Source of the DNA: Archangium sp.
Lineage (GTDB): Bacteria; Myxococcota; Myxococcia; Myxococcales; Myxococcaceae
Direction of reading: 5' to 3'
Length of the DNA stretch: 18,144 bases
Assembly (NCBI GenBank): GCA_031367385.1
Contig: JANLPS010000452.1
Location: forward strand, 1 to 18,144
Shown: piece by piece, positions 11,201 to 18,144 of the stretch
How the letters are laid out: the number at the start of each line of letters is the position of its first letter
Position numbering within the stretch: the first letter of the stretch is position 1
Position numbers: made by a program

Positions 11201-14200
11201 CAGCTGCTGTGATTGCGGCCTTCGTCGACCGCCAGGCCCGCTGAATTGCGACACCCGCAACCGCTTCATGCCCAATCGGTACTCCTGGGCATGTCACCTC
11301 GCGCTTCCAGAATCGCCGCTCAAATCATGCGTTTGTGCGCTGGCGTGCTCGCCCCGTTCGGCTGGCTCGCTGCCATTTACGGCGTCATGCTCGTCTTCCC
11401 CGTCATCTCGGCCTTCATGGGCACCTGGTTGCTCATCGAATACAGCCGCATCGCCAAGGGGGCGTCTTCGGTAGAGCGCTCCATCTCGATTTGGGTCATC
11501 TCGCTCGCCTTCAACCTGGCCGGCGTGGTGATCGTCGGCAAGCTCGCCCAGTCGTGGGACACCGCCTTGTGGGCGGTCTGGCCCCTCATCGCCAGCCTGG
11601 TCAGCGCCTGGGGCCTGAGCCTCGAGGCCAATGACGCAAAGGCCCATTCGCCCAGCGGCGCGTAGGGCTTGCTGACGACCACGACTCCCGGTACGAGCCT
11701 CCAGTCATGTCGTCGCCCGCTTGGTTCCAGAAGAAGCCGAAGATCGCCACGCCAGACCCGGTCGCCGAGACCGACGCCAGCCTCGCCAGCCGCATGGAGG
11801 GCATCTGGGGCAAGTGCGACGAGTGCGGTGAAATTCTGCTCCGCGAGGAGTTCGAAAAAGCCCTCAACGTCTGCCCCTCGTGCAATCACCACATGCAGCT
11901 GACCGCGCGCGCCCGGCTCGCCTACATCTGCGACCCCGACTCGTTCGAAGAGTTCGACGGGCACCTCGAGGCCCTCGACCCGCTCGGGTTCACCGACTCG
12001 AAAAAGTACAAAGACCGCCTCAAGAGCACCAAAAAAGCCCTCGGTGAGAACGACGCGTTCATCGCCGGCACCGCTACCATCGAAGGCCACCAGGTCTCGA
12101 TCGGCACCTTCTTGTTCGAGTTCATGGGCGGCTCGATGGGCTCGGTCGTCGGTGAAAAAGTCACCCGCGTCTTCGAGCGCGCCTACGAGCTGCGCTGCCC
12201 CGCGATCGTCTTCTCAGCCTCGGGCGGAGCGCGCATGCAAGAGGGCATCTTCTCACTCATGCAGATGGCCAAAACCAGCGCGGCCATCAACCGTTTTCGC
12301 GGCGCCAAGCGCCCGTACATCTCAGTCATGCTGCACCCCACGACCGGCGGCGTCGCGGCCTCGTTCTCGTGGCTCGGAGACGTGATTCTCGCCGAGCCCA
12401 AGGCCCTGATCGGCTTCGCCGGCCCCCGCGTCATCGAGCAGACCATTCGCCAGAAGCTGCCCGAGGGCTTTCAGCGCAGCGAGTTCTTGCTCGAGCACGG
12501 CATGATCGACGCGATCATTCAGCGCAAAGACATGAAGGCGAAGTTGGCCCAAGTCATCGGGCTCATGTGACGCCCGACGAGGGGCTGGCGTACTTCGCGT
12601 CGCTCCCGCCCTCGTCGATCAAGATGGGCCTCGACCGGGTGCAGGCCGCCCTCGCTCAATTGGGCAACCCCGAGCGCAGATACCCCGCGCTCCACGTGGC
12701 CGGCACCAACGGCAAGGGCTCGACCTGCGCCTTCGCTGCCTCGTGCTTATCGCAGCGATACCGGGTCGGTTTGTACACGTCGCCCCACCTGATTCGGGTG
12801 AATGAACGAATCAAGATCAACGGCGTCGACATCAGCGACGCGGTGCTGGGCCAACGCATCGCCGAGGTGCGCGCGCGGCTGCCCGACATCGATCTGACCT
12901 ACTTCGAGCTCGGCACCATCGTCGCGTTCTGGCACTTCGCTCAAGAAGGCGTGGCCATCGCGGTGCTCGAGACTGGGCTCGGAGGCCGCCTCGACGCGAC
13001 CACCGCGTGCGTGCCCAAAGTGACGGCAATCACTCCGATTTCGTACGATCACCAGGAGTACCTCGGCACGACCCTCACTGCCATCGCCGGTGAAAAGGCC
13101 GGCATCGCCAAGCCCGGAGTGCCGCTGGTCACCAGCCGTCAAAGCCCAGAGGCCGAGGCCGTCTTCGCGGCGCTCGAGGGCGTGCCGCGCATGCGCGAAG
13201 GCGTCGACTTCGAGGCCAAGAGCGAGCCCCGATTCTCGTACCGCGGCTTCGATCTGCGCATCAGCGGAGTGACCTTGCCGCTCCACGGCCCGCACCAGAC
13301 GCAGAACGCCGCGGTGGCGCTTGCCTGTCTCGAGTTGCTCGGCCGCGACGGTTTCCCCCTGCGTGACGAACAGATCAGACGAGGCCTCGAGCGCACCCAA
13401 TGGCCCGGCCGGCTCGAAGAGTTTCCCGGAGCTCCGCTCGTCGTGCTCGATGGCGCCCACAACCCGGGCGGGGTCGAGGCGCTGCTCCAAGCGATCGACA
13501 GCCTTTACACCAAGCGGCCCATTCACCTGGTCTTCGGAGTCTTCGCTGACAAAGATGCCGAGCCGATGATTCGCGCGCTCTTCGCCCGCGTGTCGGCGGT
13601 CACTTTGACGCCGATCGCGAACCCGAGGAGCCGGCCGCCAGAGCAGTATCTCGCGCTCGCGCAGTCACTCAACTCGAACGTACGTGTCGCCAGCGACGCC
13701 GCAACAGCGGTCAACGAGGCCAAGGCGCAGAGCCCCGCGAATGGAGTCGTGATCGTCGCAGGCTCGCTCTTTCTCGTGGGGCAGGTGCGCGCCGCGCTGC
13801 TCGAACGAGCTGCTATAACGCCTTGATGCCAGTCAAAATGTCGAAGCGCGTGCGCCGTTTTCTCGACGATGCCCACACGCTCGCCGCGCTCCCGGTCGCC
13901 AAGAAATACCGGCCGCTGGTCGTCGACGAATACTCCTTCGACGCGCAATTGCTGACCATGAGCCGGTTGTACCGCGCCAGCCGCCAGTTCTACCGCGACC
14001 TGGGCGGCCGCTTCGCCGCGCGCATCTCCTGCGAGGCCCGCTCCCTCGACGGAGGCCTGTTCGCCGAGGAGATCGAGTTCGCTCCGGCCGAGACCGAGCT
14101 GCTCTGGTTCAAAGATCACCATGGCCAGGTGCACGATCTCGAGGCCGAGGTCAGCGGCCTGCTGCGGTTCAACGAGATCTCGCTCTTTCACGAGCAAAAT

Positions 14201-17200: not shown

Positions 17201-18144
17201 GGAGACACGCTCCACTTCGCCGTACCTCCTGAGGAGGCCTACGGCGCGTATGACCCCGAGGCGGTGCTCACCGTGCCGCGCAAGCCGGGCACCAAGACCA
17301 CCCTCGCGATCGGAGACGACGTGGCCTTCAACGACGGCCAGCGCGACGTGACTGCCCGGGTTCGAAAAATCACGCCCCGCGCCATCGAGCTCGATCTCAA
17401 TGACTCACTGGCCGGGCAAACGCTGCACTTCGACATCGACATCGTCTCGATTCGCGAAGCCACGCCGCGCGAAATGCGCACTGGCCAGGTGTTCGACCCC
17501 TTCGACGGCGCTGAACGTCGCTCCACCGAGGCGCTCGACCCGCGGCGCTTTCCTTTCGATTTGTTCAACGACCCGGCGCTCTACAAGAAGATGGGGCGCG
17601 CCATCGAGTCGGTGTTGCCGTACTCGATGTTCCCTCCGTACCCGTGGGGGCAGCGACTGTACGGGCGCTTGTTCGAGCAGCGATGCAAGGGGCTCGAGGG
17701 CGACGTGATCGAGCTCGGAGTCGGCCGCGGAGGCATGTCGCTGTACCTGGCTCAGCTCGCGCAAAAAGCTGGCAAGCGGGTCTTCAGCTACGACAGTTAT
17801 GAGGGGTTGCCCGAGGCTGATTCGAGCAAGGACAACCCCGGCTTTCGCGCCGGCGATTATCGGGGCTCCAGCGAAAAAGAAGATCTGTTGGCCCGGTTCG
17901 AGGCCGCCGCGAAGAAGCTCAAGGTCAGCAAAACGATCACCCCGGTCAAGGGCTTCTTCGAGCACACCGTGCCCAAGATGGCGAAGACGCAGCGCTTCTG
18001 TTTCGCGCACCTCGACAGCGACCTCTACGACTCGGTCTTCTTTTCGCTCGAGCAGATCTACGACCGGGTCGCCGATGGCGCCGTGATCGTCATCGACGAC
18101 TATTTTCACCACGCCCAGGGCCCGGCACGCGCAGTCTCCGATTT

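What a model noticed while it worked through the whole genome (the two positions that open the first line are those of the whole stretch)
13826..18142. Myxobacterial thioamitide cluster with KPSCH core
A YcaO-TfuA cluster with two double-glycine precursors (cores KPSCHAAF and WKPSCHAAA), two methyltransferases and an uncharacterised HExxH protein otherwise typical of Bdellovibrio runs from the end of C215 into C451. It is a candidate new thioamide-peptide family in myxobacteria.
Evidence so far: g02927 (HExxH), g02928 YcaO, g02929 TfuA, g02930 precursor, g02931 FKBP-TylF methyltransferase; the end of C215 overlaps C451 with one mismatch and continues into g06066, methyltransferase g06065 and precursor g06064. 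YcaO is closest to the thioamidation family TIGR03266 (E 4e-46, under cut-off). Locus L304 from another Myxococcaceae genome keeps methyltransferase (47%), HExxH (44%), YcaO (55%), TfuA (46%) and a precursor ending KPSCH. g02927 has 334 homologues with invariant HEQNHR, the named ones mostly Bdellovibrio. A third, similar core (IGWPSHAAA) sits by a JmjC gene on C413.
(Added by a program. Inside this text positions count along the whole contig: contig position 1 is position 1 of the stretch shown here. "Call 12" and the like, gene names such as g00115 and contig names such as C1 are that model's own, and its searches are not shown. The text may have been shortened before it was handed on; [...] marks where a part breaks off. 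The agent that wrote the report below was given it as the finding of a first reader that could run no searches.)

Follow-up and report, generated by a model that had tools for sequence, protein, structure and literature searches.

The report
Peptide pathway with disarmed sulfur helper
This myxobacterial gene cluster likely makes a short, chemically decorated peptide, but its sulfur-releasing helper protein lacks the conserved serine it is thought to need and an unstudied, predicted metal-binding enzyme sits beside it, so its chemistry may differ from that of known thioamide peptides.

Summary
The genes, both precursors and the C215/C451 overlap are real. The layout recurs in two other loci, and all four precursors keep KPSCH after a Gly-Gly leader, so this is very likely a ribosomal peptide (RiPP) pathway. 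Its TfuA has Gly where 130 of 132 other TfuA domains have Ser, the likely nucleophile that frees sulfide from ThiS. The five closest TfuA relatives share the loss, and the cluster has no ThiS/ThiF. YcaO keeps its conserved acidic motifs. Thioamidation is therefore unproven: I put about 45% on a thioamide from free sulfide with TfuA as a non-catalytic partner, and about 35% on a sulfur-independent ring (thiazoline or amidine). The second methyltransferase is carnosine N-methyltransferase-like, so the core His is likely N-methylated. The HExxH protein belongs to a family with no Pfam or NCBIfam model and a conserved His-His-Glu set. Its fold only weakly resembles zincins and alpha-ketoglutarate HExxH oxygenases, so hydroxylase versus peptidase is nearly even. 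No product is known. Verdict: new variant of the YcaO-TfuA RiPP kind, not shown to be a thioamitide.

The parts
13826..14740 (+). HExxH protein, 304 aa, family without Pfam/NCBIfam model; conserved H122, H126, E151, W255; predicted zincin-like metal enzyme (hydroxylase or peptidase)
14744..16048 (+). YcaO, 434 aa; conserved Ser/Glu/Arg motifs intact; no C-terminal PxP
16045..16719 (+). TfuA, 224 aa, with Gly77 (codon 16273-16275) in place of the conserved Ser; Lys196 kept; predicted hydrolase-dead partner of YcaO
16729..16761 (.). 14-pair hairpin between the convergent tfuA and precursor genes, terminator-like on the minus strand
   Evidence: z -4.6; 0 of 200 shuffles fold as well
16788..16892 (-). 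Precursor peptide 1, 34 aa: Lys-rich leader, Gly-Gly, core KPSCHAAF
17033..18144 (+). SlyD-like FKBP domain fused to a TylF/MycF-type O-methyltransferase; runs off the contig and continues in C451, followed there by the carnosine N-methyltransferase-like gene and precursor 2

Best explanation
This is very likely a ribosomal peptide pathway in which YcaO is predicted to put a thioamide into the KPSCH core using free sulfide, with a TfuA that lacks its conserved serine and would act only as a binding partner. Inferred steps: (1) the two short genes are translated and the Lys-rich leader is recognised. (2) YcaO uses ATP to activate one backbone carbonyl in the core, and sulfide from the cell pool, not thiocarboxylated ThiS, replaces the oxygen. 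(3) The carnosine N-methyltransferase-like enzyme, which has a weak PqqD-like C-terminus, N-methylates the core His. (4) The HExxH protein, narrowly more likely an iron oxygenase (about 45%) than a zinc peptidase (about 40%), hydroxylates or oxidatively trims the core, and the TylF domain would methylate a hydroxyl, with the FKBP domain setting the Lys-Pro bond. (5) The leader would be cut at Gly-Gly and the product exported by a C39 transporter encoded elsewhere. Shown: gene content, conservation, residue states. Inferred: every chemical step.
For: RiPP status: same order HExxH-YcaO-TfuA-precursor in the window, L083 and L004; KPSCH fixed while the flanking residues vary; hairpins behind both precursors. 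Thioamide lineage: the best NCBIfam match is the McrA thioamidation YcaO family; the two best solved relatives are 6ci7 (YcaO) and 6pe3 (MJ1094), which I recall as methanogen thioamidating YcaOs. The YcaO sits in a group (SH-aLRT 96, quick tree) with Bdellovibrionota rows whose loci carry ThiF/ThiS-like genes and an intact TfuA Ser. S101, E105, E108, N195, E213, E216, R217, E302 and Q305 are kept in all three (their ATP role is recalled). TfuA is full length and keeps most conserved columns. ThoH/ThoI thioamidate with sodium sulfide in vitro (PMC12951456, passages), and purified E. coli YcaO thioamidates uL16 (PMC13063428, abstract and introduction). His methylation: PF07942 above its cut-off of 27 in all three (32.2, 33.0, 33.6 bits); PDB hits include OvsM and carnosine N-methyltransferase; a relative in G591 matches PF07942 over positions 22-266 of 268 and lies beside another Gly-Gly peptide with His. 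Oxygenase reading: ranks 1 and 4 of the domain fold search are SjiH-Ni (Z 4.1, rmsd 3.6, 105 aligned) and the ChlB HExxH oxygenase domain (Z 3.5, rmsd 4.2, 116 aligned); E123 is Asp or Ala in 15 of 35 distant members; hand-picked neighbours of other clade loci include JmjC, PhyH and 2OG oxygenases. C39 matches on two other contigs.
Against: The Ser is kept in 130 of 132 other TfuA domains although only 13 of 157 loci have a ThiS-like neighbour, so its loss points to a real change of function, which may be loss of thioamidation itself. Both YcaO and TfuA score far below the NCBIfam thioamidation cut-offs. The core has Cys, Ser and Lys, each a possible internal nucleophile. The fold Z values are below the tool's noise level and tie with zinc peptidases such as BlaR1 (Z 3.5, rmsd 3.7, 95 aligned), and Atlas leads (0.80-0.83) point to zinc peptidases. 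A Glu 25 residues after HExxH is the gluzincin pattern (recalled). L004 has no FKBP-TylF gene in its 11-kb contig. Most HExxH relatives stand alone in Bdellovibrionota. The three loci are one clade, so the Ser loss is one event.
Confidence: 0.42

Rival explanations
1. The pair has stopped using outside sulfur. YcaO closes a ring within the core, a thiazoline from the Cys thiol onto the Ser carbonyl or an amidine from the Lys or N-terminal amine, and the Ser-less TfuA only activates YcaO or holds the peptide.
For: Ser77, Met78, the EVA after DD, and Arg132 all differ from the family consensus in all three loci. The five closest TfuA relatives are Ser-less and one (P0333) has also changed the conserved Lys to Arg. 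No sulfur-carrier genes in the clusters. K, S and C are fixed in all four cores. YcaO chemistry depends on the nucleophile (PMC13063428 introduction).
Against: No C-terminal PxP (rule recalled) and no E1-like partner. Cys is also present in likely cores of loci with an intact TfuA (L005, L007, L086). All characterised YcaO-TfuA pairs listed in PMC13174530 (passages) make thioamides.
Confidence: 0.35
2. The HExxH protein has taken over the job of the lost TfuA serine and releases sulfide, from ThiS-COSH or cysteine, for YcaO.
For: HExxH lies directly before YcaO in all three Ser-less loci. HExxH, YcaO and a Ser-less TfuA also share a 13,407-base longest-contig value (P0006, P0123, P0333), which suggests a fourth locus that I could not read.
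Against: L010 has two distant HExxH-family genes together with an intact TfuA Ser and ThiF/ThiS-like genes. Most family members have no YcaO nearby.
Confidence: 0.08
3. The YcaO-TfuA arm is decaying, and only the methyltransferases and the HExxH protein modify the peptide.
For: TfuA has lost several conserved residues and scores low against PF07812 (80.6 bits, against 133.5 for the genome's other TfuA). The same leader serves JmjC loci without YcaO.
Against: Both frames are intact in three loci at 46-64% identity, and the YcaO motifs are conserved. The same Gly recurs in six proteins, which is not random decay.
Confidence: 0.08
4. The enzymes modify a cellular protein, as the McrA and uL16 YcaOs do, and the short genes are bystanders.
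For: The first gene overlaps the folC stop and the cluster lies between housekeeping genes. The HExxH family is mostly standalone. The precursors are on the opposite strand.
Against: A KPSCH peptide sits right behind tfuA in three of three loci and is duplicated here. L083 and L004 have other flanking genes.
Confidence: 0.05

Closest known systems
Thioviridamide-type thioamitides (thiostreptamide S4 tsa cluster, thioholgamide; PMC8153245, passages)
   Same: Adjacent YcaO and TfuA; His N-methyltransferase; an O-methyltransferase; in those clusters His is also hydroxylated by an iron oxygenase
   Different: No flavin decarboxylase or kinase/HopA1 genes for the aminovinyl-cysteine ring; core of 8-15 residues built round KPSCH; different methyltransferase families (PF07942, PF05711); TfuA without Ser; HExxH protein instead of a PhyH oxygenase
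McrA thioamidation system of methanogens (TIGR03266 YcaO, NF033432 TfuA, PDB 6xp8)
   Same: Best NCBIfam matches; ungapped alignment to 6xp8 over the GxxSMGALRA motif
   Different: Both scores are below cut-off; Ser77 of 6xp8 aligns with Gly77; the substrate is a short peptide by gene context
alpha-Ketoglutarate HExxH oxygenases (ChlH, PflC, PosC; PMC12636437, passages)
   Same: HExxH motif, RiPP context, weak zincin-like fold match to 8s5f and 22ob; PflC both oxidises and hydrolyses peptides
   Different: No match to any NCBIfam or Pfam model for 93 family members; the third conserved ligand candidate is Glu151, whereas I recall three His for ChlH; no radical SAM cyclophane synthase here
Carnosine N-methyltransferase (PF07942, PDB 5yf0) and OvoA/OvsM-type histidine N-methyltransferases (TIGR04345, PDB 9bxh)
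   Same: Best specific family matches of the C451 methyltransferase
   Different: Adds an N-terminal Cys4 knuckle and a weak PqqD-like C-terminus (E 0.021, below cut-off); the predicted substrate is a peptide His
Streptamidine and other amidine- or azoline-forming YcaO RiPPs (PMC8442711, search listing only)
   Same: Short core, YcaO; a model for the rival reading
   Different: Those have no TfuA as far as I recall; not tested here

Membership tests
YcaO-TfuA thioamidated RiPP (thioamitide, broad sense) | Adjacent ycaO and tfuA genes above Pfam cut-offs | tested here: met
   PF02624 201.4 bits (cut-off 25.7), PF07812 80.6 bits (cut-off 30), overlapping stop/start
YcaO-TfuA thioamidated RiPP (thioamitide, broad sense) | Conserved precursor peptide nearby | tested here: met
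   Four KPSCH precursors in three loci
YcaO-TfuA thioamidated RiPP (thioamitide, broad sense) | YcaO ATP/Mg-binding motifs intact | tested here: met
   Columns conserved in 29 clade and 121 outside rows are kept in all three; residue roles recalled
YcaO-TfuA thioamidated RiPP (thioamitide, broad sense) | TfuA Ser-Lys pair that hydrolyses ThiS-COSH | tested here: not met
   The only Ser conserved in at least 80% of rows (130 of 132; next best 95) is Gly in all three; the Lys (126 of 132) is kept. The pair is named in PMC13185837; that this column is the catalytic Ser is inferred, as the primary paper was not held
YcaO-TfuA thioamidated RiPP (thioamitide, broad sense) | Thioamide bond in the product | not testable with these tools
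   No product or assay
Thioviridamide-type thioamitides | Flavin cysteine decarboxylase and kinase/HopA1 dehydratase genes; C-terminal Cys macrocycle | tested here: not met
   All ORFs between folC and grpE are accounted for by other families; Cys is not C-terminal
TIGR03266 / NF033432 McrA thioamidation proteins | Score above curated cut-off | tested here: not met
   157.7 against 365 and 126.8 against 235.2 bits
Azoline-forming YcaO RiPPs (TOMM/LAP) | TIGR03604 score, E1-like partner, C-terminal PxP | tested here: not met
   93.3 against 219.25 bits; no E1-like gene; C-termini (PxP rule recalled)
alpha-KG HExxH oxygenases | Zincin-like fold shared with ChlH | tested here: inconclusive
   Z 4.1 (22ob) and 3.5 (8s5f), tied with zinc peptidases and unrelated chains
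alpha-KG HExxH oxygenases | [quoted passage not shown] | not testable with these tools
   Needs assay
Gluzincin metallopeptidases | HExxH plus a downstream Glu ligand on the next helix | tested here: met
   H122 92 of 93, H126 92 of 93, E151 93 of 93; helices 120-132 and 140-174 in the model. Metal geometry itself was not inspected
Gluzincin metallopeptidases | Invariant catalytic Glu and peptidase activity | tested here: inconclusive
   E123 in 78 of 93; Asp in 14 and Ala in 1 of 35 distant members
Carnosine N-methyltransferase family (PF07942) | Score above gathering cut-off | tested here: met
   32.2, 33.0, 33.6 bits against 27, on a short stretch; generic methyltransferase models score higher

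The most novel reading that the evidence does not exclude
A natural YcaO-TfuA pair that has left thioamide chemistry: a hydrolase-dead TfuA drives YcaO to close a thiazoline or amidine ring in KPSCH, while a new His-His-Glu family of HExxH iron enzymes oxidises the neighbouring Cys-His, possibly to a thiohistidine link that the OvoA-like methyltransferase then N-methylates. TfuA would then no longer be a safe marker of thioamides, and the standalone Bdellovibrio members would be an unrecognised family of peptide or protein oxidases.
Probability: 0.25. Interest if true: 0.82.

Novelty: new variant of a known kind. Interest (0 to 1): 0.62.

Why it matters
[quoted passage not shown] A lineage that kept TfuA but lost its conserved serine separates the sulfur-releasing role from the partner role, and one co-expression experiment with a 34-residue peptide can test it. 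The cluster also offers the first candidate substrate for a metal-enzyme family found in 34 of 251 Bdellovibrionota genomes searched, which has no family model and no clear solved relative.

Tried and rejected
Fold searches of the full-length HExxH model gave nothing usable: Foldseek no match at E 0.001, VIA best Z 5.5 to unrelated helical proteins. Foldseek and the second-look search of the N-terminal domain were also blank. Profile searches of PDB sequences with alignments A1 and A5 found nothing. A weak or missing fold match does not show a new fold. A DinB/EgtB reading of the motif was considered from memory and dropped, because the third conserved ligand candidate is a downstream Glu. Complex prediction of HExxH with the precursor was not available, so binding is untested. 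No RNA holder was listed. The Atlas gave no hit for the unknown L004 ORF 2065-3132. The careful YcaO tree did not finish, so only quick trees are quoted. GC and third-position GC of the cluster genes (0.62-0.67 and 0.79-0.83) lie within or near the range of the flanking genes, so there is no sign of recent transfer. The idea that HExxH simply replaces the TfuA serine was weakened by L010. Methyltransferase relatives in four other Myxococcaceae genomes (L214-L217) were not resolved by my rough gene caller. Earlier scan notes held nothing on this locus.
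Full report
What is there. The window is contig C215 of a 7.97-Mb, 562-contig genome. After accD and folC come four genes on the plus strand and one on the minus strand: an unknown 304-aa protein (13826-14740), YcaO (14744-16048), TfuA (16045-16719), a 34-aa peptide gene (16788-16892, minus) and an FKBP-TylF fusion that runs off the end. The last 73 bases match the start of reverse-complemented C451 with one mismatch. C451 supplies the TylF C-terminus, a 440-aa methyltransferase, a second peptide gene facing it, and grpE. 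Hairpins lie behind both peptide genes (z -4.6 and -3.1, 0 of 200 shuffles each). Public contigs from four sediment runs of two studies, three of them possibly the source of this DNA, show no other letters over 13500-18144, and one runs 3,383 bases past the window end. The residues discussed below are therefore unlikely to be assembly errors.

It recurs. The YcaO has 66 relatives at E 1e-30 or better among the 7,996 candidates scored. A profile of 57 of these proteins fetched 79 genome loci and 78 metagenome loci, of which I took 30 (L004-L015, L083-L100) as the close clade. Two of the 30 repeat the cluster. L083 has the same order: HExxH, YcaO, TfuA, precursor on the other strand, FKBP-TylF, methyltransferase. 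L004 has methyltransferase, an unknown ORF, HExxH, YcaO, TfuA, precursor. The cores after Gly-Gly are KPSCHAAF, WKPSCHAAA, WEDKPSCHICVEPGR and VADGKPSCH: a fixed pentapeptide in variable flanks. In a quick tree the window, L083, L004 and P0123 YcaOs form one clade (SH-aLRT 99) inside a group with Bdellovibrionota rows (96). The system is rare: the precursor profile hit 2 of 208 family genomes, the own one and the same-genus genome of L004, and the HExxH protein 1 of 301 genomes of the order, the own one. I put RiPP status at about 0.9.

In the solved TfuA 6xp8 the motif reads GGASMGALRA; the window has GAGGLGAIRA in an ungapped alignment. From loci L004-L160, 146 TfuA hits gave 140 of at least 150 residues and 134 distinct ones. 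Leaving out L004 and L083, 130 of 132 have Ser at this column, while the window, L004 and L083 all have Gly. These loci were picked by YcaO likeness, so they are not a random sample of TfuA. It is the only Ser conserved at that level (next best 95 of 132), and one Lys is conserved likewise (126 of 132) and kept here. TfuA uses a Ser-Lys pair to hydrolyse ThiS-COSH and hand sulfide to YcaO (PMC13185837, passages). The primary paper was not held, so the match of column to catalytic residue is my inference. A protein search gave 13 hits: the own protein and the five closest (46-53% identity) have Gly, and the seven others (28-36%) have Ser. One of the five has Ser at the two preceding positions, and another has also changed the Lys to Arg. 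The genome's second TfuA, on C447, keeps the Ser. ThiF-like genes occur in 7 and ThiS-like genes in 6 of the 30 clade loci, but not in L004 or L083; the genome has three ThiS matches elsewhere. YcaO keeps its conserved Ser, Glu, Asn, Arg and Gln columns, including a Met and a His that I match to those PMC8120280 reports as preferred in TfuA-linked YcaOs (section 15).

What YcaO then does. Two readings are close. Thioamidation from free sulfide is the smaller step from the ancestral state; ThoH/ThoI work with sodium sulfide in vitro (PMC12951456, passages) and purified E. coli YcaO thioamidates uL16 (PMC13063428, abstract and introduction). Against it, nearly all other TfuA proteins keep the Ser even without a ThiS neighbour, and the core offers Cys, Ser and Lys as internal nucleophiles. 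I give about 0.45 to a thioamide from free sulfide, 0.35 to a ring, and the rest to sulfur supplied by the HExxH protein, a decaying arm, or a protein substrate.

The HExxH protein. It has 334 homologues in one search and 145 representatives at 50% clustering. None of 93 diverse members matches a Pfam or NCBIfam model beyond single weak hits. Across those 93, H122, H126, E151 and W255 are conserved in 92, 92, 93 and 92 rows, and E123 in 78. Both models are confident (pLDDT 94 and 95). The domain with the motif (residues 31-185) gives only weak fold matches: SjiH-Ni Z 4.1, a channel Z 3.9, BlaR1 Z 3.5, the ChlB HExxH oxygenase domain Z 3.5, then several zincins near 3. That SjiH is an alpha-ketoglutarate HExxH enzyme is recalled; two papers I checked do not name it. 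These scores are leads only. The family occurs in 34 of 251 Bdellovibrionota genomes, mostly alone among changing neighbours. Of 36 neighbourhoods read, 2 look like RiPP loci: L194 (short Lys-rich peptide, HExxH, TIGR03975-like radical SAM at 205.6 bits against 281.85) and L199 (PqqD-like gene and short peptide). L010 has two distant members round an intact YcaO-TfuA-ThiF-ThiS locus with a PqqD gene. The cluster-borne copies group together, beside the Bdellovibrio ones (SH-aLRT 86). So the family is recruited to peptide clusters more than once. Oxygenase is favoured slightly by the fold ranks, the loose E123, the oxygenases beside other clade loci (hand-picked, not counted), the JmjC loci that share the leader, and the His hydroxylation of thioamitides (PMC8153245, passages). 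Peptidase is favoured by the gluzincin spacing (recalled), the Atlas leads, the lack of another protease, and flanks that need trimming. PflC shows that one HExxH enzyme can do both (PMC12636437, passages).

The methyltransferases. The C451 enzyme is present in all three clusters and passes the carnosine N-methyltransferase cut-off in each, with weak hits to the OvoA C-terminal domain and OvsM. With a fixed His in the core, His N-methylation is the best-supported tailoring step (about 0.7). The FKBP-TylF fusion is in two of three clusters; its domains match SlyD and MycF/NovP. Its target, Ser or a new hydroxyl, is a guess.

The third peptide. GG-IGWPSHAAA follows a JmjC gene on C413, and the same-genus genome has GG-IVGLPPPYAAN behind two JmjC-like genes. 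These share the leader but are a separate oxygenase system.

Known or new. It works like a YcaO-TfuA RiPP pathway but fails one tested feature of that family (TfuA Ser) and the ring genes of thioviridamide-type clusters. Ten literature searches listed no paper on this cluster, on a Ser-less TfuA, or on this HExxH family. The library lacks most subscription papers, I did not search the word KPSCH, and I did not open the supplements of PMC8120280, whose cluster tables might hold relatives. I also saw passages of PMC13174530, PMC12766979 and PMC12912966. Verdict: real, a new variant of a known kind, interest 0.62. It comes from uncultured material, has three readable loci of one clade, and no product.

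Noticed in passing
G000:C413 (L002 8676-10101) and G591:C423 (L210 8813-11435): JmjC genes with a short Gly-Gly peptide of the same leader type directly behind (cores IGWPSHAAA and IVGLPPPYAAN): a candidate minimal JmjC peptide system in this genus.
   Followed up: partly
G000:C485 (L211 6389-6568): A further short ORF with a similar leader and core VATGSCCGA, behind a 1746-aa kinase-like gene; weak profile hit (E 0.0135).
   Followed up: no
G591:C438 (L218 1474-3132): Carnosine N-methyltransferase-like gene (PF07942 42.6 bits) followed by a Gly-Gly peptide with core GTADCGGGHNRPA, without YcaO nearby.
   Followed up: partly
L005, L006, L007, L010, L011, L084, L090: Bdellovibrionota-type YcaO-TfuA loci with ThiF- and mostly ThiS-like genes, intact TfuA Ser and, in several, short Lys-rich peptides (TMGCH/TMGAM in L005, TMGCS in L007): better candidates for true thioamide peptides than the window.
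   Followed up: partly
L086 1175-1414: Precursor with four repeats of a TDCAH core before YcaO-TfuA, with a JmjC gene nearby.
   Followed up: no
L008 (Paraliomyxa miuraensis SMH-27) 9929-13742: A cultured strain carries a clade YcaO, an intact TfuA and a JmjC-like gene; no precursor found by my ATG-only scan.
   Followed up: no
L194 7765-11073 (G303:C16): Short Lys-rich peptide, HExxH-family gene and RiPP radical SAM C-methyltransferase-like gene in one row.
   Followed up: partly
L199 742-9447 (G351:C23): PqqD-like gene, short peptide, several glycosyltransferases and an HExxH-family gene: possible glycopeptide locus.
   Followed up: no
L004 1-3132 and 7100-8356: An amidinotransferase-like ORF (label recalled from motifs; no Pfam hit), a 355-aa ORF of no known family, and a LanC-like ORF flank the L004 cluster.
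   Followed up: partly
G000:C447 (L219 976-3170): Second YcaO-TfuA pair: TfuA with intact Ser, short 319-aa YcaO.
   Followed up: partly
L089 1322-1576; L099 1375-1563: Other clade precursors: a repeat peptide (ASARESGGSGG units) before a 2OG-oxygenase-like gene and YcaO-TfuA; a Cys-rich peptide before two YcaOs, TfuA and a lanthipeptide dehydratase.
   Followed up: no
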